From Candidatus Buchananbacteria bacterium (GTDB lineage Bacteria > Patescibacteriota > Patescibacteriia > Buchananbacterales > UBA6539), in contig JBAYMO010000001.1 of assembly GCA_041663485.1 (NCBI GenBank), positions 11,023 to 75,022 on the forward strand: 64,000 bases of DNA. Reading direction: 5' to 3'. This document shows positions 762-52,731 of the stretch, piece after piece. Positions within the stretch are counted from its first letter, which is position 1; each line of letters starts with the position of its first letter. The notes below the pieces were generated by a model that was given only the letters and a program-made list of their open reading frames with translations, had not been told where the DNA came from and made no database searches. The position numbers and the translations under genes were made by a program.

Positions 762-1907
762 TTATTTGTACCAATCTTGTTTAGGCTGATATGAGGTCAG
801 TAATTGATTCTTTTGCTGATGTCGTTTAATAGCTAAATCAATCAACTCATTAAGGAGCTTGGAATAAGATAATCCGACTGCTTCCCAAAGCTTGGGATAC
901 ATTGAAATTGAAGTAAAGCCGGGCAAAGTGTTAACTTCATTAAGATATATCCTTTTTTTGTCTTTGGATAACAAAAAGTCAACTCGTGATAACCCGCTCA
1001 AATCTAGCACTTTAAAAGCCTCAATGGCGTATGCTTTTATTTTTTTTGTTAACTCGGCTGATAGTTTGGCCGGAATTACCGCTTGAGTTTTGCCATCAAC
1101 ATATTTTGCGTCATAATCATAAAATTCGTTGGATGGAATAATTTCTCCTAAAGCTGAAACTCGGGGTTTATCGTTACCTAAAACTGAGACCTCTATTTCG
1201 GTAATATTTTCTATCCCCTGTTCCACAATAACTTTTCGATCGTATCTGGCGGCTTCATTAATACCTCGAATCAATTCCTGACGATTATGACACTTCCCTA
1301 TCCCCACGCTGGAACCGGTATTGGCAGGCTTAGTAAATACCGGATATTTAAGTTTATTTTCAATATTTTTAATAATTTGCTGGCGATTTTTTGACCAAGC
1401 ACTGGATAAAAAATAAACATACTCAACAATCGGCAGTTTGGCCTGAGCAAAAATTTGTTTTTGGACAATTTTATCCATCCCTACGGCTGAACCTAAAACG
1501 CCACAACCGACATACGGAATATTCGCCATTTCCAGCAAGCCTTGTAAACATCCGTCTTCGCCATAGGTACCGTGCATGACTGGAAAAATTACATCGACTT
1601 TAGTAAAAGGTTTTTGCGTTTCTGTCACCGGGGCTAAAGTCTTTTCTGAAACATTGGTTAATCTGTTTTCCGTTGGATCAGGTATTAAAATTGACTTAAA
1701 AGGCAATTTTTTAATGCCGGCTTTGAGATATTCAACCGCCTTCTGACCGGCGATCCATTGACCTTGCTTGGTAATGCCAATCGGCACCGCTTCATACTTG
1801 CTTCGGTCAAGAAATTTTAAGACTGACTGAGCCGACACAATTGAGACTTCATGTTCACCAGACCGACCACCAAATATAACCCCAACTTTAATTTTATTTT
1901 TTGACAT
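762..1907 (-). CDS. ddl: D-alanine--D-alanine ligase
   Basis: 381 aa; N-terminus KVGVIFGGRSGEHEVS and an ATP-grasp layout typical of Ddl. Confidence 0.9.
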   Translation of the reverse strand: MSKNKIKVGVIFGGRSGEHEVSIVSAQSVLKFLDRSKYEAVPIGITKQGQWIAGQKAVEYLKAGIKKLPFKSILIPDPTENRLTNVSEKTLAPVTETQKPFTKVDVIFPVMHGTYGEDGCLQGLLEMANIPYVGCGVLGSAVGMDKIVQKQIFAQAKLPIVEYVYFLSSAWSKNRQQIIKNIENKLKYPVFTKPANTGSSVGIGKCHNRQELIRGINEAARYDRKVIVEQGIENITEIEVSVLGNDKPRVSALGEIIPSNEFYDYDAKYVDGKTQAVIPAKLSAELTKKIKAYAIEAFKVLDLSGLSRVDFLLSKDKKRIYLNEVNTLPGFTSISMYPKLWEAVGLSYSKLLNELIDLAIKRHQQKNQLLTSYQPKQDWYK

Positions 1908-1956
1908 AATATTGATAAAATTATAATTTTTTACCTTATTTAATTATTTTTACGTT

Positions 1957-3072
1957 TTATTTTATATACATCCTAGGCAATAAAGGATTAATTCGCGTGA
2001 CTACTTCGTAATTAATTGTACCGATTTTTTTGGCTAAATCTTCAGCTGGAATTTTATTACCTAACAATATCGCTTCGTCTCCAGTTTTTACTGATTTTAT
2101 TTTAGATACATCAACCATCATCAAATTCATACAGATACGACCAACTACCGAACAAACTGCATTTTTAATCTGAACAAATCCGGTGTTCGAAAGTTTTCGG
2201 TCATAACCTTCCCAATACCCCGCGGCCAACACCGCAATTTTCATTTCTTTTTTTGCTTGATAGGTTGAACCATAACCGACTTTGGCGCCAGCGGGAATAG
2301 TTTTAATTTGTACAATTTTGGTCTTCCAAATTAAGGCCGGTTTTAGTTTAAACCAAGGATATTTTTTTTGAATAATATTTTTAACTTTGGCCGATGGCCA
2401 CAAGCCATAAAGACCCAAACCAAGCCTGATTAAATTAAAATTGGCCTGTGGCTCAACCAAACTGGCAGCACTACAGGCAAAATGTTTATCTGAAATTTTT
2501 ATCTGATTCTTTTCAAGATCTTTGACAACATTATTAAAAATTTTGAGCTGTGATTTTGTATAATTTGGATTGTTTTCTGAATCAGCAAAATGGCTGTAAA
2601 GGCCAACCACCTTCAGACCAGGCATCATAATTATTTTTTTTATAAAAAACTCGGCTTGGCTTGGCGCGATACCAATTCGTGACGTCCCAGTATCAATTTT
2701 AACATGAACTTTAGCTTCTTTTCTTTGTTTTAATGCAACTTGGGAAATAATTTTCGCATAATTTAAATCATAAACCGGCAACTCAATCCCCTGTTTAATT
2801 CCATCACTTAAGTATCGACCGGGGGCATAGCTTAGAACAAAAATATTATTTTTTATTCCGAGTTTTTTTAATGCCAAAGCTTCACCAAGACTGACAACAC
2901 CAAATCTTTTTACTTTAGCCGAAAGTAGCCGGGCAATCTCGAACATCCCATGCCCATAAGCGTTACTTTTAATTACCGGCACGATTTCAACCCTGGAACC
3001 GACCAATTTTTGATATTGAGCTAGGTTGTTTAAAATTGCTGATTTTGAAATTTCGACCCAAGAATTATACAT
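1957..3072 (-). CDS. alr: Alanine racemase
   Basis: 371 aa with the PLP motif VIKSNAYGHG near the N-terminus. Confidence 0.88.
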   Translation of the reverse strand: MYNSWVEISKSAILNNLAQYQKLVGSRVEIVPVIKSNAYGHGMFEIARLLSAKVKRFGVVSLGEALALKKLGIKNNIFVLSYAPGRYLSDGIKQGIELPVYDLNYAKIISQVALKQRKEAKVHVKIDTGTSRIGIAPSQAEFFIKKIIMMPGLKVVGLYSHFADSENNPNYTKSQLKIFNNVVKDLEKNQIKISDKHFACSAASLVEPQANFNLIRLGLGLYGLWPSAKVKNIIQKKYPWFKLKPALIWKTKIVQIKTIPAGAKVGYGSTYQAKKEMKIAVLAAGYWEGYDRKLSNTGFVQIKNAVCSVVGRICMNLMMVDVSKIKSVKTGDEAILLGNKIPAEDLAKKIGTINYEVVTRINPLLPRMYIK

Positions 3073-4325
3073 TATTTATTATTTTTTTCAATTTTACTAA
3101 AGCCGCAAAACGGCTGGAGAGCCAAAGGAATATCCACGGAACCATCTTCATTCTGAAACTGCTCTAAAATCGCAGGAATTAAGCGGCTAGTGGCCAAACC
3201 AGAGGCATTTAGGGTATGAACAAACTCATTTTTGCCAGTTTCCAAATTTTTAAAGCGCACATTACCCCGACGCGCTTGATAATCCAAGGCATTGGAAACA
3301 CTGGAGACTTCTTTGTATCCCTCCATGCTGGGGATCCAGACTTCAATATCAATAGTTTTAGCCATAGCCGCTGAAGCGTCCCCCGCTGCCAATAATACCG
3401 ACTGAAAATGCAGACCTAAGCCTTCTACCAAAGCTTCGGCATTCTTAACTAGTTCCGCAAAACTGTCCCAAGATTGTTCCGGCTTAGTATATTGAAACAT
3501 TTCAATTTTGTTAAATTGATGGCCACGAATCATTCCTCTTTCTTCTTTGCGATAGCTACCGGCTTCGCGCCTAAAACAAGCGGAATAGGCACAATATTTG
3601 TAAGGCAATTTTTGGACGTCCAAAATTTCATCGCGATGATAGTTGCCCAGCATCATTTCCGAAGTCGCGTTCAAACATAATTTATCTTGAGTCCAAAATA
3701 AATCATCACGGAATTTTGGTAAATGTCCAGAAGTATAGGCCGATTGTTCGGTCAGCAAAAATGGCGGGATCATGAAAGTATAGCCATTGCTTTGATGAAA
3801 TTTTATAAAGTATGAAAGCAAGGCCCACTCCAAAATTGCTCCGGCACCTTTATAAATCCAAAAACCCGTACCGGACATTTTAGCCGCCCGCTCGTAATCA
3901 ATAATATCTAAGCTTACCGCCAAATCATAATGATCTTTAATGGTAAATTTAAATTTCTTCTGACTGCCAACGGTTTTTATGACCTTATTATTCTCTTTTC
4001 CACCAGCTAAAACGTCGTCCGCGGGTAAATTGGGCAAAGCCGCCAATTTTTCGTTTAAATTATCTTCCACCATTCTCAACCTATCATCAAGTTCTTTGAT
4101 TTGATCCCCAATATCGCGCATCTTTTTTATCGTTTTTTCGTCCGGCTTGGTTTTAGAAAATTTATTTCTTTCAGCTTTCAAAATTTCCGCCTCTTGCAAA
4201 ATCTCTCGGCGCTTATCATCAGCCAAAATAATATCGTCGAGATTTAAATCTTTTTTATCCAACCTTTTTAACAAAGCCTTAGTTACCTCCTCCTTCTGAT
4301 TTCTGATTCGATTTAGATCTAGCAT
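3072..4325 (-). CDS. serS: Seryl-tRNA synthetase
   Basis: 417 aa with an N-terminal coiled-coil arm and a class II core. Confidence 0.9.
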   Translation of the reverse strand: MLDLNRIRNQKEEVTKALLKRLDKKDLNLDDIILADDKRREILQEAEILKAERNKFSKTKPDEKTIKKMRDIGDQIKELDDRLRMVEDNLNEKLAALPNLPADDVLAGGKENNKVIKTVGSQKKFKFTIKDHYDLAVSLDIIDYERAAKMSGTGFWIYKGAGAILEWALLSYFIKFHQSNGYTFMIPPFLLTEQSAYTSGHLPKFRDDLFWTQDKLCLNATSEMMLGNYHRDEILDVQKLPYKYCAYSACFRREAGSYRKEERGMIRGHQFNKIEMFQYTKPEQSWDSFAELVKNAEALVEGLGLHFQSVLLAAGDASAAMAKTIDIEVWIPSMEGYKEVSSVSNALDYQARRGNVRFKNLETGKNEFVHTLNASGLATSRLIPAILEQFQNEDGSVDIPLALQPFCGFSKIEKNNK

Positions 4326-6999: not shown

Positions 7000-7458
7000 T
7001 TATTTGATCTTTAAAATCTCACACTCCATTTCTCCCTTAGGGACTACCACTTTGACTTTTTCACCAATTTTTCGCCCTAAGAAAGCGCGACCCAAAGGCG
7101 ACTCATTTGAGATTAAACCCATGGACGGATTAGCTTCGTTTGAGCCGACGATCGTGTACTCTGTTTCTTTTTTATTGCAAAGAATTTTTATTGTACTACC
7201 GACATTAACCATATTCTTTGAACCGCCCTCTTCAATTAATTCTGACTTGTTGATTAAATTTTCCAGCTCGGCCATCCGACCGGCAATGAAACCTTGTTCA
7301 TCTTTGGCGTCTTGATACTCGGCATTCTCCGAAAGGTCACCCAGCTCTTTGGCTCTGGCAATTCTTTCAATTACTTCCGGCATTTTTATTTTTTTTAAAT
7401 ATTCCAATTCTTCCTCTAATTTCTGTAAACCTTGTTTGGTTAAATAATTTGTTCCCAT
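7000..7458 (-). CDS. greA: Transcription elongation factor GreA
   Basis: 152 aa; N-terminal coiled coil carrying acidic residues and a C-terminal FKBP-like domain. Confidence 0.9.
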   Translation of the reverse strand: MGTNYLTKQGLQKLEEELEYLKKIKMPEVIERIARAKELGDLSENAEYQDAKDEQGFIAGRMAELENLINKSELIEEGGSKNMVNVGSTIKILCNKKETEYTIVGSNEANPSMGLISNESPLGRAFLGRKIGEKVKVVVPKGEMECEILKIK

Positions 7459-7520
7459 AGTAGTAAAAGGCTTAAAAAAAATACAGTTTTTTTAAGAGCT
7501 GTAAAAATTTTATTTAAATA

Positions 7521-7549
7521 CCTGAATTAAATTATAATTTAATAAAAAA
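7521..7549 (-). promoter_or_regulatory. Sigma70 promoter for greA (TTGACA-17-TATAAT on the minus strand)
   Basis: Plus-strand tgtcaa at 7544-7549 and attata at 7521-7526 give a perfect consensus -35 and -10 on the minus strand with a 17-nt spacer. Confidence 0.6.
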
Positions 7550-7570
7550 TATATGTCAAGACTTGTGCCT

Positions 7571-7897
7571 AAAAAATAAAAAGGTTGGCAACAGAAACCA
7601 CTTGGTAGCCCCTTTGGAGGTCCGTTGTTGGGATACGGAGTCTTCTCTAGCAAAAAGAGTCGCAACGAGGGAAGACTAGAAGGGGTATCCGCCAGAGCTC
7701 AGCTACAACTATTCGTATGCCTGGAGCTTTGCCGTTATTACATAGTTGGCCATCATCCGGGGCGGTAGAAACTCTCGAAAAGTTCCGCCTGGCCGTAAAC
7801 CCGCTAGACATGTTGACAATCACCCAACGATAGCCAAAAACACGGCGCAATAGCTTCTGTTGCCAAAAATCGTATAGTCGAATTGCAATGAACAGCG
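7571..7897 (-). ncRNA. Structured ncRNA of about 325 nt, class unresolved (candidates tmRNA, 6S or long SRP RNA). It sits in a GC-rich island with its own promoter and a U-tract.
   Basis: GC is about 50% against roughly 35% in the flanks. A 12-bp closing helix joins 7855-7866 to 7583-7594 and is followed by a U-tract. A TTGACT/TAATAT promoter lies at 7904-7932. No plausible ORF. Confidence 0.5.
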
Positions 7898-7903
7898 ATT
7901 TAA

Positions 7904-7932
7904 ATATTATATAAATTAAACAAAAAAGTCAA
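7904..7932 (-). promoter_or_regulatory. Sigma70-like promoter driving the ncRNA island (TTGACT-17-TAATAT)
   Basis: Plus-strand agtcaa at 7927-7932 and atatta at 7904-7909, immediately after the PBP2 stop codon. Confidence 0.5.
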
Positions 7933-7937
7933 GGGGG

Positions 7938-9923
7938 CTACTTCTTAATTAAGGCCTGGGTCGTAGAAGCCAAACCGGCCTTCTGCGCCGCCCACCAATT
8001 AAAAATATCATAGGCTACCGGCAGGGCCACGCTGCTGCCCTCACCTCCCTCTTCCACCAAAACCGTAATCACAATTTCTGGATCATGGTATGGCGCAAAG
8101 GCCGTAAACCAGGCTTGCGGCAGCTTAGTCGAGGACCATTGAGCCGTTCCAGTTTTAGCCGCCACTTCGACGGGTAGAGCACTTAAACGTTTACCACTAC
8201 CAGTCAAAACAGTTTGTCTCATTCCCCTCTTTATTATTTCAATATTTTTTTCGGATATAAAATCCTGATTTAAAATTCTTGGTTCAATCTTAGATATTGA
8301 ATTATTTTGACCGTCTAAAATTTCTTTAACCACATGCGGCTGGTAAATCTTGCCGCCGTTGGCATAAAATGACGTCCAAAGCGCGACCTGCAATGGCGTG
8401 GCCAGTAAATCACCCTGGCCAATGGCAAAATGATAAGTATCACCAATATACCAAACCTCATTTTTTGTTTCTTCTTTCCACCTGGGATCAGGCACAAAGC
8501 CGGTGGCTTCGTTAGGTAAGTCTATCCCCAGTTCCTTACCAATGTTAAACGATTCGCTATATTTTTCCAGCTGATCCACACCCAAACCCTTAAAATCATT
8601 ATAGCCGCCGCCGACGATATAAAAATAAGTATTGATTGATTCCGCTATCGCCTTAATAATGTTGGTGGCTCCGTGACCGCCGGCTTTCCAATCGGGAAAA
8701 AACCATTTATTAACATGGATGCCGCCGGAACTAACAAAAGTCGTATTTTCATTAACAATATTTTCCTGCAAAGCAGCGCCTCCGACAATCAACTTAAAGG
8801 TTGAACCGGGCGGATATTCACCACTAATTGAACGATTAAACAATGGGTGGCTAGAATCGTTAATTAGTTTCTGAAAATCACTTTGACTGATACCAAGACT
8901 GAATAAATTATTGTCAAAAGTCGGCAAAGAAACTAAGGCCAGGATTTCACCGGTTTTCGGATCCAAAACAATGACTGACCCTTTCTTTTTGCCAGTCGAA
9001 GATAAAATTTTCTTAAGACTCTTTTCCGAGATGTTTTGCAAATCTTGATCAATACTTAAAACCAAATTACTACCGGAAACATACTTCTGCGAAGCTAAAA
9101 TTTCCTTGGCTTGACCAGTGGCGTCTACCTCCACCTGCTCTTTGCCATTACTGCCTTTCAATTCTTTTTCATAGGTCAGCTCTAAGCCCGCCTTGCCGAC
9201 ATAATCATTGTAAAGGTAGCCTTTGGCCAAATATTCCTCCCTTTTACTTTCCTCAATCTTACCCTGATAACCTAAAACATGGGAAAAACTTTCAGTTGAT
9301 GACGCGGTTAAATAATGACGAGTACTGTCAATAATTAAAACCACGCCGGAATATTTCGTGGCCAATATTCTGATGCCGATTGCTTGATCTTGATTGAGAT
9401 TTTCCGCCACGATAATCGGCTGATAAGAATAGACGACTTTAGAAAATACTTGCTGATAGATGCCATCGGCCGATTGGCCGGTGACAGCGGATAATTCATC
9501 GGCCAAACTTCGACGAACGGCCTGATCCTTAGATAAATCAACCGGAATAATGCCCAAAGAAAAGCTTGGGATATTCTCCACCAACGGCTTCATGTTACGA
9601 TCATAAACCAGACCCCGAGGCGCTTTGACATCACGGATACGAATCCGATTGCCCTCCGCCACGGCGCGGAAGTAGTTACTTTGATACAATTGCAGATAAG
9701 CCGTTCGACCAAGTAATATAACCAAGCCTAAGAATAGTATTCCAAGCCAGAAATTGATACGCGGCTTATTTAAAATCAATCCAAATGAGCCGGACCGAAA
9801 ATTATTATCATCCGATGAAAAAGAATCCACTTCATGGCTGTAATTTTTGAAGCGGCGTTGAATACTATACTTGGAATTTTTCGATGTAATCCCAAAGGGA
9901 TCAGCCCCGGTTACGTTTTTCAT
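7938..9923 (-). CDS. mrdA: Penicillin-binding protein 2 / transpeptidase (rod-complex PBP)
   Basis: 661 aa; N-terminal TM helix and the STFK (SxxK) active-site motif. It is directly adjacent to mreD, mreC and mreB. Confidence 0.85.
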   Translation of the reverse strand: MKNVTGADPFGITSKNSKYSIQRRFKNYSHEVDSFSSDDNNFRSGSFGLILNKPRINFWLGILFLGLVILLGRTAYLQLYQSNYFRAVAEGNRIRIRDVKAPRGLVYDRNMKPLVENIPSFSLGIIPVDLSKDQAVRRSLADELSAVTGQSADGIYQQVFSKVVYSYQPIIVAENLNQDQAIGIRILATKYSGVVLIIDSTRHYLTASSTESFSHVLGYQGKIEESKREEYLAKGYLYNDYVGKAGLELTYEKELKGSNGKEQVEVDATGQAKEILASQKYVSGSNLVLSIDQDLQNISEKSLKKILSSTGKKKGSVIVLDPKTGEILALVSLPTFDNNLFSLGISQSDFQKLINDSSHPLFNRSISGEYPPGSTFKLIVGGAALQENIVNENTTFVSSGGIHVNKWFFPDWKAGGHGATNIIKAIAESINTYFYIVGGGYNDFKGLGVDQLEKYSESFNIGKELGIDLPNEATGFVPDPRWKEETKNEVWYIGDTYHFAIGQGDLLATPLQVALWTSFYANGGKIYQPHVVKEILDGQNNSISKIEPRILNQDFISEKNIEIIKRGMRQTVLTGSGKRLSALPVEVAAKTGTAQWSSTKLPQAWFTAFAPYHDPEIVITVLVEEGGEGSSVALPVAYDIFNWWAAQKAGLASTTQALIKK

Positions 9924-12328: not shown

Positions 12329-12364
12329 ATTTTGGCTTATTTTAAACGTTTTAATTAATTACTG

Positions 12365-12393
12365 TTGACATGATATTGATAATATGTTATGAT
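12365..12393 (+). promoter_or_regulatory. Sigma70 promoter (TTGACA-17-TATGAT) driving the GC-rich RNA island
   Basis: ttgaca at 12365-12370, tatgat at 12388-12393, spacer exactly 17 nt. Confidence 0.6.
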
Positions 12394-12399
12394 TATTTT

Positions 12400-12850
12400 T
12401 GTTCTCAACTTAATGGTGAGTTTGAGAATAGAACCAAAGGGCCAACAACTAACAGAAGGGGTTGTATTAATGGCCGCGTTATCGAAACGCCAGGCAAAAA
12501 TCCTGGCACGTTCCAAGATGATTGGGGAAGGCCGGAAACCGGTTCAGCCGCGGCACCTACGCCTGCCGCGACAACAAAAAGTCTTCTCCAAGAAGGCTGA
12601 CCCCGAACGGGTGACGCCAGACGAAGGCGTCTTGGGCCTTGGAATATTCCCTGGCGGCAAATCGCGCGCGCAGATTGCAGCAGCGAGCTTCTACCTCGCC
12701 GCGGAAGGCCTGAAAGGGTCTATTCGAATGAAAGGCGAGGGGCGCTCGCGCCTCGTCACCATCCCCATCGCTGCCTAGCCAGCAGCGACGAGCTTAAAAG
12801 CTCACCCGGAGCCGATTGACTACCCTGTCCGTCGGCTCCTTTCCTTTTCC
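12400..12850 (+). ncRNA. Large structured ncRNA of about 440 nt, candidate RNase P RNA (bacterial type A-like, reduced)
   Basis: About 58% GC in an AT-rich genome. Upstream promoter; terminal hairpin ggagccga/tcggctcc followed by a T-run at 12808-12850. Tandem hairpins CCAGGCAAAAAUCCUGG and CCGGAAACCGG resemble P8 and P9. ACAACAAAAAG resembles CR-III. GGGUGAC followed by the hairpin GCCAGACGAAGGC resembles CR-IV. ACCCGG lies near the 3' end. CR-I and P4 are not cleanly recognisable. Confidence 0.45.
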
Positions 12851-12860
12851 AAAAATTCAA

Positions 12861-51471: not shown

Positions 51472-52731
51472 ATGTTTGCTCTGATTGATTGCAACAATTT
51501 TTATGCTTCCTGTGAAAGACTGTTTAATCCCAAGCTGGAAAATTTCCCGGTTGTGGTTTTATCTAACAACGACGGTTGTGTTATTGCCAGATCTGAAGAA
51601 GCCAAAAAACTTGGTATTGCCATGGGCCAGCCTTATTTTGAAATCAAAAAACTAGCCGAGCAAAAACTGGTACATGTCGCCTCTTCCAATTTTTCCCTTT
51701 ACGGTGATATTTCTCAAAGAGTGATGAATATCTTGCATTATTTTATTGACGAAATAGAAATTTATTCCATTGATGAGGCCTTTATTAATTTAGACCAAAT
51801 TAAAAAATCGGATTTAACTGCTTTCGGTTTAGATATCAGAAAGACTATCAAACAGTGGACCGGCATTCCCGTTTCCATCGGTTTGGGATCAACCAAAACT
51901 TTGGCCAAAGCCGCCAGTAAAGTGGCCAAAAAACAACCTCAATTTGGCGGAGTAGTAAATTTTATTAACAACCCAGCCATTGATTCTTGGCTTGACCAGA
52001 TTGCAGTTGACGATATTTGGGGCATTGGCCGGCAATATGGCAAACTTTTAAAAAGTTTAAATATCGCCACGGCCCTGGACTTTAAAAAGCTACCGCCCGA
52101 TTGGATTAAAAAAAATCTAACCAGCGCCGGCCTGACAACCTGGCAAGAAATTAACGGCCAAGCTTTGGTTGATTTTGAAAAAGAAAAAAGTCAAGCCAAA
52201 AGCATTATCAGTTCACGATCTTTTAAGCAGCCTATTAGAGAACTTGGTGCGTTAGAAAAACTCGTTGCCAGCTACACGGCTCGCGCGGCGGAAAAACTCC
52301 GAGCTGACCGGCTCAAGGCCAAAGAAATTTCAGTTTATATCCGCACTAATCGTTTTAACCGAGAAAACTTTTATTTTAATTCGACTAAAATTAAACTGAA
52401 CCCACCGACCGATTACTCCCCCGAATTAATCACCCAAGCGCAAATAGCTTTAAAAAAAATTTTTAAACCGGGTCTGCCTTATAAAAAAGCCGGCATTAGT
52501 CTGACGCAATTGGTGGATAAAAATTGTATTCAACCGAATTTATTTGAAAATAAAAACTTAGAAAATAAAAAAGAGCGCCTGATGCGCTGCTTGGATAAAC
52601 TTAATCAAAAATTCGGATCTAAAACCATTGGCTCGGCGGCGGAAAGTTTTTGCGGCGTCAGCTTTTTGGAACAAAGTTTTAAATCTCCCAGCTACACCAC
52701 CGACTGGCAAGAATTATTACTGGTTAAGTAA
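51472..52731 (+). CDS. umuC: Y-family translesion DNA polymerase (UmuC/Pol V-like)
   Basis: 419 aa; [16 protein letters not shown]-terminus typical of UmuC/DinB. Confidence 0.85.

What the first reader, a model, noticed from the sequence alone, without database searches (positions are those of the whole stretch)
7571..7932. Second GC-rich structured RNA island (about 325 nt, minus strand) between the PBP2 gene and greA
GC is about 50% against roughly 35% in the flanks. Its own TTGACT/TAATAT promoter abuts the PBP2 stop codon. A 12-bp helix pairs the transcript 5' end (7855-7866) with its 3' end (7583-7594) and is followed by a U-tract. The greA promoter starts immediately afterwards. There is no ORF. 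It has the size and end-to-end pairing of tmRNA, 6S or long SRP RNA. I could not find a tmRNA T-arm, a 5' GGGG, or the SRP domain IV motif.
Basis: seen in the sequence. Interest (0 to 1): 0.5.

Follow-up and report, generated by a model that had tools for sequence, protein, structure and literature searches.

The report
New cloverleaf small RNA upstream greA

Summary
Window 7571-7932 (minus strand) contains a promoter 5 nt after the PBP2 stop codon, an 18-bp helix joining the RNA's two ends, a U-tract, and then the greA promoter. I found 12 homologous copies (11 distinct) upstream of greA in relatives of Candidatus Buchananbacteria. Two of them have a different upstream gene, and one locus has two tandem copies, each with its own promoter and terminator. 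All 12 fold into the same plan: a long closing helix P1 around a four-way junction (variable P2/P3 domain, P4 and P5 arms; the P4 arm is vestigial in the two shortest folds), with stability z-scores of -1.9 to -6.7. On sequence-only alignments P1 is 87.7% paired (32-48% when slid) and 9 of 14 pairs change on both sides. P1, the P3 base and P4 together are 90.8% paired, with 14 of 22 pairs changed on both sides. Rfam 15, ARAGORN, and phage, plasmid and viral searches find nothing. It is not 6S, tmRNA, SRP or RNase P RNA, not a dispersed repeat, and not coding. It is patchy: close relatives lack it or keep only the promoter. Best reading: a clade-specific, independently transcribed structured small RNA. 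Function is inferred only.

The parts
7904..7932 (-). Promoter of the RNA gene: -35 TTGACT (7932-7927), 17-nt spacer, -10 TAATAT (7909-7904). It starts 5 nt after the PBP2 stop codon.
   Evidence: scan; the same TTGAC[A/T]-17-TAnnnT arrangement sits at the same distance from P1 in 10 of 12 homologous copies.
7867..7897 (-). Predicted unpaired 5' leader of about 30 nt, U-rich at its 3' end. The transcription start (about 7897) is inferred from the -10 position and has not been mapped.
   Evidence: A leader of similar length is predicted in all copies that have a promoter match.
7849..7866 (-). P1, 5' strand (UUGGCAACAGAAGCUAUU). It contains the family-conserved AGAAGC block.
   Evidence: fold; on the sequence-only alignment A5, 87.7% of cells are paired against 32-48% when slid, 9 of 14 pairs change on both sides, and 0 of 500 shuffles reach the score.
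7840..7848 (-). Conserved block GCGCCGUGU: joint J1/2 (GC), the 5' strand of P2 (GCCGU) and the start of P3.
   Evidence: It is identical in the window, L164, L091 and L175a, and occurs only once in the 64-kb window.
7731..7846 (-). P2/P3 domain, 116 nt here. P2 (GCCGU/ACGGC) closes a variable, branched P3 domain that ranges from 61 to 137 nt across the family.
   Evidence: Compensatory changes are seen in P2/P3 within subgroups, and the P3 base is counted.
7727..7736 (-). Conserved block AACGGCAAAG: the 3' strand of P2, joint J2/4 and the start of P4.
   Evidence: The 14-mer AACGGCAAAGCTCC is shared exactly with L001.
7696..7728 (-). P4 hairpin arm (33 nt here; 18-24 nt in eight copies, 39 nt in the L001 fold, reduced to a 2-bp stem in the L163 and L161 folds).
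   Evidence: P4 is recovered by RNAalifold from a plain MAFFT alignment, and all 5 of its pairs change on both sides.
7603..7694 (-). P5 arm (92 nt and branched here; 12-66 nt elsewhere).
   Evidence: Compensatory changes occur in P5 between L003 and L089.
7585..7602 (-). P1, 3' strand (AGUGGUUUCUGUUGCCAA).
7571..7582 (-). U-tract (UUUUUAUUUUUU), 2 nt after P1. Together with P1 it forms the presumed intrinsic terminator.
   Evidence: A U-rich tract follows P1 within 0-8 nt in all 12 copies. The simple terminator scan misses it because the 'loop' is the whole RNA.
7531..7559 (-). Separate greA promoter (TTGACA-17-TATAAT). It marks the downstream boundary of the element and shows that greA does not depend on the element's promoter.
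   Evidence: 12 of 12 matches.

Best explanation
This is a stand-alone gene for a structured small RNA. It belongs to a family found so far only upstream of greA in one clade of Candidatus Buchananbacteria (Patescibacteria). Shown or directly readable from sequence: a sigma-70-type promoter immediately after the PBP2 stop codon; a leader of about 30 nt; a 12-18 bp closing helix P1 that encloses a nearly perfect four-way junction with three arms (a variable P2/P3 domain, P4 and P5); and a U-tract directly after the 3' strand of P1. Inferred mechanism: when the 3' strand of P1 is transcribed it pairs with the 5' strand made 150-280 nt earlier. Because a U-tract follows, that long-range helix works as an intrinsic terminator. 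It releases an RNA of about 170-325 nt whose two ends are locked together, which should make it resistant to exonucleases. Sequence conservation is concentrated in the helices that meet at the junction (AGAAGC/GCUUCU in P1, GCCGU/ACGGC in P2, GUGUC/GAUGU at the base of P3, and the A-rich J2/4 joint), while the arms vary freely in length and sequence. I therefore infer that the junction core is a recognition platform, most likely for a protein, and that the RNA acts in trans. Its constant position next to greA reflects linkage or co-regulation, not leader-type control. The RNA is dispensable or replaceable, because close relatives lack it.
For: Homology: 12 copies (11 distinct) at the same place and in the same orientation. 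A profile built without the window copy finds that copy as the top hit in the 64-kb window, E = 1.2e-7. A covariance model built from two copies recovers seven held-out copies (L001). Structure: all 12 independent MFE folds give P1 plus a multiloop with three branches, with z-scores of -1.9 to -6.7. On sequence-only alignments, P1 is 87.7% paired against 32-48% when slid, 9 of 14 pairs change on both sides and 0 of 500 shuffles reach the score. P1, the P3 base and P4 together are 90.8% paired against 33-59%, with 14 of 22 pairs changed on both sides and 0 of 500 shuffles. Each of two subgroup alignments has 6 compensatory pairs. Copies from different subgroups are only 45-64% identical yet keep the architecture. 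Independent gene: the promoter is conserved in 10 of 12 copies; a U-tract follows P1 in 12 of 12; a full-consensus greA promoter lies downstream of the terminator; and L175 has two tandem copies of different subtype, each with its own promoter and terminator. Strand: the sense strand folds better than the antisense strand in 11 of 11 copies, by 7.9 kcal/mol on average. Non-coding: gap lengths break any frame and there is no Pfam match. Linkage to greA: in L091 and L175 the upstream gene is not PBP2, but the element still precedes greA.
Against: There is no expression data, so transcript ends, stability and trans action are all inferred. Only 11 distinct sequences from one narrow clade are available, so the covariation statistics are inflated by relatedness; no R-scape-type test on a curated alignment could be run. 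The family-wide alignment of P2 and P5 could not be made with the available tools, so support for those helices comes from subgroups and from individual folds. P4 is not clear-cut in the short L001-type copies: it shrinks to a 2-bp stem in the L163 and L161 folds. The element is absent from close relatives (L162, L165/L166, L088, L167, L168), so it is not essential at this locus. Strict co-location with greA would also fit a cis role. No partner protein or target is identified, and no conserved complementarity to the greA 5' region was found.
Confidence: 0.7

Rival explanations
1. It is a cis-acting attenuator or riboswitch-like sensor for greA. The four-way junction binds a ligand or protein. 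Binding controls whether P1 closes and terminates transcription from the upstream promoter, which sets the amount of read-through into greA.
For: The element always lies upstream of greA on the same strand, even when the upstream neighbour changes. P1 abuts a U-tract, so P1 closure and termination are coupled. Conserved nucleotides cluster at the junction, as they do in aptamers.
Against: greA has its own full-consensus promoter downstream of the terminator. In L175 the two tandem copies each have their own promoter and terminator, unlike tandem riboswitches, which share one transcript. P1 is 12-18 bp and very stable, with no alternative anti-terminator pairing evident. The arms vary widely in length (61-137 nt for P2/P3), and the element is missing in relatives with 85-88% identical GreA.
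Confidence: 0.12
2. It is the structured 3' end (terminator, insulator or stabiliser) of the mreBCD-PBP2 operon transcript rather than a separate gene.
For: Only 5 nt separate the PBP2 stop codon from the element's -35 box, and no other terminator lies between PBP2 and the element. Operon transcripts must therefore run into the element and would stop at P1/U-tract.
Against: The promoter is conserved in 10 of 12 copies. The element follows greA, not PBP2, in L091 and L175. Most relatives end the PBP2 gene with a spacer of 28-140 nt and no such structure. A 170-300 nt covarying four-way junction is far more than a terminator needs.
Confidence: 0.07
3. It is a non-functional or selfish sequence: a MITE-like inverted-repeat element, or a decaying remnant that happens to fold.
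For: Presence is patchy among close relatives. L165 and L166 have a promoter-only remnant. There are terminal inverted repeats (P1), and length varies widely.
Against: It is single-copy in the 64-kb window and has no similarity to phage, plasmid or viral collections. The copies are orthologous in position and as diverged as their hosts. Compensatory changes maintain four helices. The outermost P1 bases vary while the inner ones are conserved, the opposite of transposon ends. Promoter and U-tract are retained.
Confidence: 0.05
4. It is a highly divergent member of a known housekeeping RNA family (6S, tmRNA, SRP RNA or RNase P RNA) that the Rfam models miss in Patescibacteria.
For: Its size and end-to-end pairing resemble those RNAs. 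No Rfam family at all is detected in the 64-kb window, so the whereabouts of those genes in this genome is unknown.
Against: No hit appears even at E<=10 locally or at E<=5 on nine other members. ARAGORN finds no tmRNA. The fold is a four-way junction with no central bubble and no sign of a tRNA-like domain, an SRP domain IV or the RNase P core. Essential RNAs would not be missing from this locus in sister genomes or be duplicated in tandem with diverged arms.
Confidence: 0.03
5. It encodes a small protein (for example the 67-aa TTG ORF at 7647-7850).
For: Stop-free runs of 36-79 codons exist on the sense strand of every copy.
Against: There is no Pfam match. Only 1 of 10 and 1 of 8 internal gaps between close homologues are multiples of three. 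The longest stop-free run falls in different frames in different copies. Substitutions are compensatory in helices.
Confidence: 0.02

Closest known systems
6S RNA (ssrS; Rfam RF00013 and relatives)
   Same: It is a stand-alone, abundant-type bacterial RNA of a few hundred nt whose 5' and 3' ends pair in a long closing stem. Some species carry two diverged copies. Being linked to a transcription-factor gene invites the idea of an RNA-polymerase-related role.
   Different: 6S is a rod with a large central bubble that mimics an open promoter. This RNA has a four-way junction with 0-3 unpaired nt per joint. No Rfam 6S model scores on any member.
GraL, the short RNAs from the E. coli greA leader (PMC2836576)
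   Same: It is a non-coding RNA produced next to greA by termination upstream of the coding sequence.
   Different: GraL is 40-60 nt, starts at the greA promoters and ends at a leader terminator (PMC2836576, abstract). The element here lies upstream of the greA promoter, has its own promoter, and is 170-325 nt and highly structured. A separate, GraL-like small hairpin plus T-tract does exist in the greA leader here (window 7474-7502).
Orphan structured ncRNA motifs found in long GC-rich intergenic regions of AT-rich genomes (GC-IGR approach; PMC6429828, PMC8632094), such as raiA-type RNAs
   Same: The discovery signature is the same: an unusually long, GC-rich spacer in an AT-rich genome, a multi-stem fold supported by covariation, narrow phylogenetic range and no known function.
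   Different: It matches none of those motifs, all of which are in Rfam. It comes from Patescibacteria, and its closing helix doubles as the terminator.
Four-way-junction riboswitch aptamers (SAM-I and cobalamin type; comparison from my own knowledge)
   Same: P1 closes a four-way junction and the conserved nucleotides are concentrated around the junction.
   Different: P1 here is 12-18 bp rather than 4-8 bp. There is no separate expression platform. The downstream gene has its own promoter, tandem copies have separate promoters, and the arm lengths are very variable.
Tandemly duplicated small-RNA genes such as PrrF1/PrrF2 or OmrA/OmrB (comparison from my own knowledge)
   Same: L175 carries two diverged paralogues side by side, each with its own promoter and terminator.
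   Different: Those are short, Hfq-dependent base-pairing sRNAs with a simple terminator hairpin. This RNA is a large cloverleaf with no identified seed or target.

Membership tests
6S RNA | Matches the Rfam 6S covariance models (RF00013 and clan members) | tested here: not met
   There is no hit at the gathering score in the window, none at E<=10 in 7400-8050, and none at E<=5 on nine other members.
6S RNA | Rod-like fold: closing stem, large single-stranded central bubble, terminal stem | tested here: not met
   All 12 folds show a four-way junction with joints of 0-3 nt and no bubble.
tmRNA | tRNA-like domain (acceptor and T-arm, 3' CCA) plus a tag-peptide reading frame | tested here: not met
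   ARAGORN finds no tRNA or tmRNA in the window, and Rfam gives no hit.
SRP RNA (small or large bacterial type) | Domain IV helix with the conserved symmetric and asymmetric loops and a GNAR tetraloop, as captured by the Rfam SRP models | tested here: not met
   No Rfam SRP hit appears at any threshold used.
RNase P RNA | Conserved catalytic core (P4 pseudoknot, CR-I to CR-V), as captured by the Rfam RNase P models | tested here: not met
   No Rfam RNase P hit appears. The four-way junction fold shows no sign of a P4-type core.
Cis-regulatory leader or riboswitch of greA | Lies within the 5' UTR of the regulated gene, with no promoter between the element and the gene | tested here: not met
   A 12-of-12 consensus promoter (7559-7531) lies between the element's terminator and greA. 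The tandem copies in L175 each have their own promoter.
Cis-regulatory leader or riboswitch of greA | Constant association with the same downstream gene | tested here: met
   All 12 copies lie upstream of greA on the same strand, including two loci where the upstream gene is not PBP2. However, every locus was retrieved through GreA, so copies elsewhere in these genomes could not have been seen.
Independent small-RNA gene (generic) | Own promoter and own intrinsic terminator, non-coding, conserved with structure-preserving substitutions | tested here: met
   See (promoter; P1 and U-tract; non-coding; covariation). Expression itself could not be tested.
MITE or dispersed inverted-repeat element | Multiple near-identical copies per genome, with the terminal-most bases conserved | tested here: not met
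   There is one copy in 64 kb. The outer P1 bases vary while the inner ones are conserved. No phage, plasmid or viral similarity was found. Whole genomes could not be scanned, and target-site duplications were not checked systematically.
GraL (greA leader RNA) | Starts at the greA promoter and ends at a terminator within the greA leader; 40-60 nt | tested here: not met
   The element lies upstream of the greA promoter and is 170-325 nt. The GraL definition is taken from PMC2836576.
Bacterial Y RNA (YrlA type) | Ro/Rsr-binding stem plus a tRNA-like module; encoded next to rsr | tested here: inconclusive
   There is no Rfam Y-RNA hit, and no rsr gene is evident among the ORFs read around the element. 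Whether these genomes encode Rsr at all could not be checked.

The most novel reading that the evidence does not exclude
The RNA is a Patescibacteria-specific regulator of the transcription machinery: a decoy or scaffold that binds RNA polymerase or GreA. It would be functionally analogous to 6S or Ms1 RNA but structurally unrelated, and this would explain why it stays glued to greA through genome rearrangements and why paralogous subtypes coexist in tandem.
Probability: 0.1. Interest if true: 0.75.

Novelty: new variant of a known kind. Interest (0 to 1): 0.45.

Why it matters
To my knowledge and from two literature searches, very few non-coding RNAs beyond rRNA, tRNA and introns have been described for Patescibacteria (CPR), which have tiny genomes and little intergenic DNA. 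A 170-325 nt spacer kept under structural selection in such a genome is therefore likely to do something. This family gives a concrete, testable candidate with defined ends, a defined fold, conserved junction helices, natural presence/absence variants and a natural tandem duplication. It also shows an unusual design in which the helix that closes the whole RNA doubles as its intrinsic terminator. If it turned out to act on RNA polymerase or GreA, it would be a new class of transcription-regulating RNA. If not, it is one more clade-restricted orphan RNA, which is useful for annotation but not surprising.

Tried and rejected
(1) blastn and single-sequence nhmmer of the element against 80 related loci found nothing. 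Homology became visible only by reading the orthologous spacers and was then confirmed with profiles.
(2) MAFFT on all full-length copies (A1; A4) misaligned the large indels. The structure-aware MAFFT modes are not installed.
(3) A single-sequence covariance model (R1) found only 5 of 12 copies and misaligned the L092-type copies, so I did not iterate on it.
A trimmed eight-sequence alignment was still out of register in P4.
(5) Model R2 (two trimmed copies) recovered seven held-out copies. It did not recover the window, L003 or L089 copies, probably because of their long insertions. It found no convincing new member among 178 greA loci; the L081-L083 hit lies inside what looks like a coding sequence, and the other weak hits (including L138) were not inspected.
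(6) Complementarity between the RNA and the greA 5' region gave z from -2.9 to +0.6 at different sites in each genome, so there is no support for antisense control of greA.
(7) I looked by eye for pairing between a leader CUUUGCC motif and the internal GGCAAAG block. It is present in some copies and absent in others, so I dropped it.
(8) Phage and plasmid BLAST and a viral-contig scan for the most conserved 22-mer found no match.
(9) Literature searches for a described Patescibacteria or greA-associated RNA found nothing relevant except GraL.
(10) I checked whether the other GC-rich island (12329-12860) is a paralogue. It is not.

Full report
WHAT IS THERE. The window is a 40% GC stretch from a Patescibacteria genome. 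Its GreA protein is identical to one deposited as 'Candidatus Buchananbacteria bacterium' (P0001), and the nearest genomes are Buchananbacteria/Patescibacteria MAGs. Genes run on the minus strand in the order mreB, mreC, mreD, PBP2 (7938-9923), then a 479-nt spacer, then greA (7000-7458) and lysS. The spacer reads, 5' to 3' on the minus strand, as follows. The promoter TTGACT-17-TAATAT lies at 7932-7904, 5 nt after the PBP2 stop codon. A leader of about 30 nt follows. The 302-nt core is 49% GC. The U-tract is at 7582-7571. The greA promoter, a perfect TTGACA-17-TATAAT, is at 7559-7531.

IS IT MORE THAN CHANCE? The region folds to -107.7 kcal/mol, z = -3.5, and 0 of 100 dinucleotide shuffles fold as well. 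An 18-bp helix pairs 7866-7849 with 7585-7602. The decisive evidence is comparative. The PBP2-greA-lysS order is conserved across many Patescibacteria, and the usual PBP2-greA spacer is 28-140 nt and mostly AT-rich. Long spacers without GC depletion occur only in close relatives. Simple similarity searches failed. Reading those spacers showed the same layout, with shared blocks: GCGCCGTGT, AACGGCAAAG(CTCC), and AGAAGC...GCTTCT in the closing helix. Using genome, metagenome and protein-anchored look-ups, I collected 12 copies, 11 of them distinct: the window, L164, L001 (nearly identical to L163), L161, L091, L175a, L175b, L003 (= L087), L089, L092 and L171. A profile built from five other copies, with the window excluded, finds the window element as the best hit in the whole 64-kb window (E = 1.2e-7, minus strand).

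STRUCTURE. Folded independently, all 12 copies give the same plan. P1 has 12-18 bp and closes a multiloop with three branches and joints of only 0-3 nt. The first branch is a P2/P3 domain of 61-137 nt. In 10 of the 12 folds the other two branches are clear P4 and P5 hairpin arms. In the L163 and L161 folds, P4 shrinks to a 2-bp stem. A U-rich tract follows 0-8 nt after P1. Stability z-scores are -1.9 to -6.7, and seven are below -4.5. Individually predicted pairs are canonical by construction, so I tested pairing on alignments made from sequence alone. With the first 36 and last 40 nt of each copy aligned by MAFFT (A5), P1 is 87.7% paired against 32-48% when the partner strand is slid by 1-3 columns. 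Nine of 14 pairs change on both sides, and 0 of 500 column shuffles reach the observed score. On a plain MAFFT alignment of eight full-length copies (A6), RNAalifold itself recovers P1 and P4. P1, the P3 base and P4 together are 90.8% paired against 33-59% when slid, with 14 of 22 pairs changed on both sides and 0 of 500 shuffles. Within subgroups that align trivially, there are 6 compensatory pairs in L092/L171/L175b (P2/P3 and P4) and 6 in L003/L089 (P2/P3, P4 and P5), and the L003/L089 pair has no broken pair among its 57 predicted pairs. Copies from different subgroups are only 45-64% identical overall. The sense strand folds better than the antisense strand in 11 of 11 copies, which fits the G·U pairs seen in P1 and the promoter and terminator orientation. 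Caveats: the sequences are few and related, so the shuffle statistics overstate significance. I could not produce a family-wide structural alignment for P2 and P5 with the tools at hand.

WHAT KIND OF THING IT IS. It is an independent transcription unit. A TTGAC[A/T]-17-TAnnnT promoter sits at a fixed distance from P1 in 10 of 12 copies, and the other two have weaker TTTAC-type matches that I read by eye. P1 plus the U-tract ends every copy, and greA has its own consensus promoter after that. L175 carries two copies in tandem, one of the window's subtype and one of the L092 subtype, each with its own promoter and terminator. That is how duplicated small-RNA genes look, not how leaders look. 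The element is non-coding: gap lengths between close homologues break any frame, and the 67-aa ORF has no Pfam match. It is not a dispersed repeat or a mobile element: there is one copy in 64 kb and no phage, plasmid or viral similarity. It stays with greA when the upstream neighbour changes, which happens in L091 (a methyltransferase-like ORF and another ORF lie upstream) and in L175. It is patchy. Among relatives with 85-88% identical GreA, L162 has a 98-nt spacer without it. L165 and L166 keep the upstream promoter followed by only about 60 nt of AT-rich sequence. L088, L167, L168, L173, L174 and L176 also lack it. A covariance model built from two trimmed copies recovers seven held-out copies and finds no convincing further member among 178 greA loci.

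WHAT IT IS NOT. Rfam 15 (4227 families) gives no hit at the gathering score anywhere in the window, none at E<=10 in 7400-8050, and none at E<=5 on the element in nine other loci. ARAGORN finds no tmRNA or tRNA. The four-way junction with almost no unpaired joint nucleotides is incompatible with the 6S rod-and-bubble, and it shows no sign of an SRP domain IV, an RNase P core or a tRNA-like domain. It is not GraL, the 40-60 nt RNAs made from the E. coli greA promoters and leader terminator (PMC2836576), because it lies upstream of the greA promoter. Searches of the literature library found no description of such an RNA in Patescibacteria. The general signature, a long GC-rich spacer in an AT-rich genome, is the one exploited by the GC-IGR discovery pipeline (PMC6429828, PMC8632094).

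HOW IT MOST LIKELY WORKS. Shown: the promoter, the fold, the U-tract, the conservation pattern and the gene linkage. Inferred: RNA polymerase starts near 7897. When the 3' strand of P1 emerges, it zips onto the 5' strand and, with the U-tract, terminates transcription. This releases an RNA of about 325 nt whose ends are sealed in an 18-bp helix. Sequence conservation is concentrated where the helices meet: AGAAGC/GCUUCU in P1; GCCGU/ACGGC in P2, with a G·U variant in L001 and a compensated GUCGU/ACGAC in L161; GUGUC/GAUGU at the P3 base; and an A-rich J2/4 joint. The arms tolerate large insertions. I therefore favour a trans-acting RNA whose junction core is a recognition platform, most likely for a protein. 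A cis role on greA read-through is the main rival (about 0.12). I found no conserved complementarity to the greA 5' region.

NOVELTY AND VERDICT. This is a genuine structured small-RNA family that matches nothing in Rfam 15 and was not found in the searched literature. It has a narrow range (one Buchananbacteria clade) and an unknown function. The kind of thing, a clade-restricted orphan structured sRNA, is familiar. The particular architecture (a cloverleaf whose closing helix is the terminator), the host group and the strict greA linkage are new. Interest is moderate (0.45). It would be high only if a link to RNA polymerase or GreA were shown (probability about 0.1).

Noticed in passing
It is not a paralogue of the element and has no Rfam hit. 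It looks like a plus-strand small protein gene running against all its neighbours: TTGACA-17-TATGAT promoter, a GAAGGGG Shine-Dalgarno-like site, ATG near 12470 (about 102 aa), and a GGAGCCGA...TCGGCTCC hairpin plus T-tract (read). There is no Pfam match. It may be foreign DNA.
   Followed up: partly
window 7474-7502 (minus strand), in the greA 5' UTR: A small hairpin plus T-tract, ACAG-N(5-12)-CTGTATTTTTT, lies between the greA promoter and the start codon. The same motif occurs in 18 of 45 distinct greA upstream regions of relatives. In position it resembles the E. coli greA leader terminator that produces GraL (PMC2836576).
   Followed up: partly
L003, L089, L092, L171, L175, L091, L004, L005, L088 and others, mostly about 110-120 nt upstream of the greA ATG: A DnaA-box-like 9-mer (TGTGGATAA) sits just upstream of the greA promoter in 31 of 45 distinct relatives. 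It is absent from the window and its seven closest relatives. This may indicate DnaA control of greA in part of the clade.
   Followed up: partly
L002 (= L086) 1742-3000: In this relative the PBP2-greA spacer is 1259 nt and 44% GC. In place of the RNA element it carries a promoter-like site, a long leader and a 216-aa ORF (2064-2714) with a hairpin terminator. The ORF was not identified.
   Followed up: no
L081-L083 about 2960-3170: A GC-rich stretch of about 200 nt lies immediately after the greA stop codon, ahead of what looks like a protein-coding ORF. It is unrelated in sequence to the element and could be another structured RNA or a repeat.
   Followed up: no
L165 614-807 and L166 463-656: These loci keep the upstream promoter (TTGACA...TATTAT, nearly as in L001), but only about 60 nt of AT-rich sequence follows it where the RNA should be. 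This looks like a recent deletion of the RNA body.
   Followed up: partly
L091 263-1581: A 242-aa ORF that looks like a DNA methyltransferase and a convergent 197-aa cysteine-rich ORF lie upstream of the element, in a locus where no PBP2 homologue was found. Neither ORF was scanned against a family library. This is a local rearrangement that left the RNA-greA pair intact.
   Followed up: no
whole window 1-64000: No tRNA, tmRNA or Rfam family of any kind is detected in 64 kb.
   Followed up: no
window 52125-52169 (plus strand): The family profile gives a weak hit here (E = 0.011) containing AACGGCCAAGCT, inside the ORF at 51472-52731. It is probably chance.
   Followed up: no
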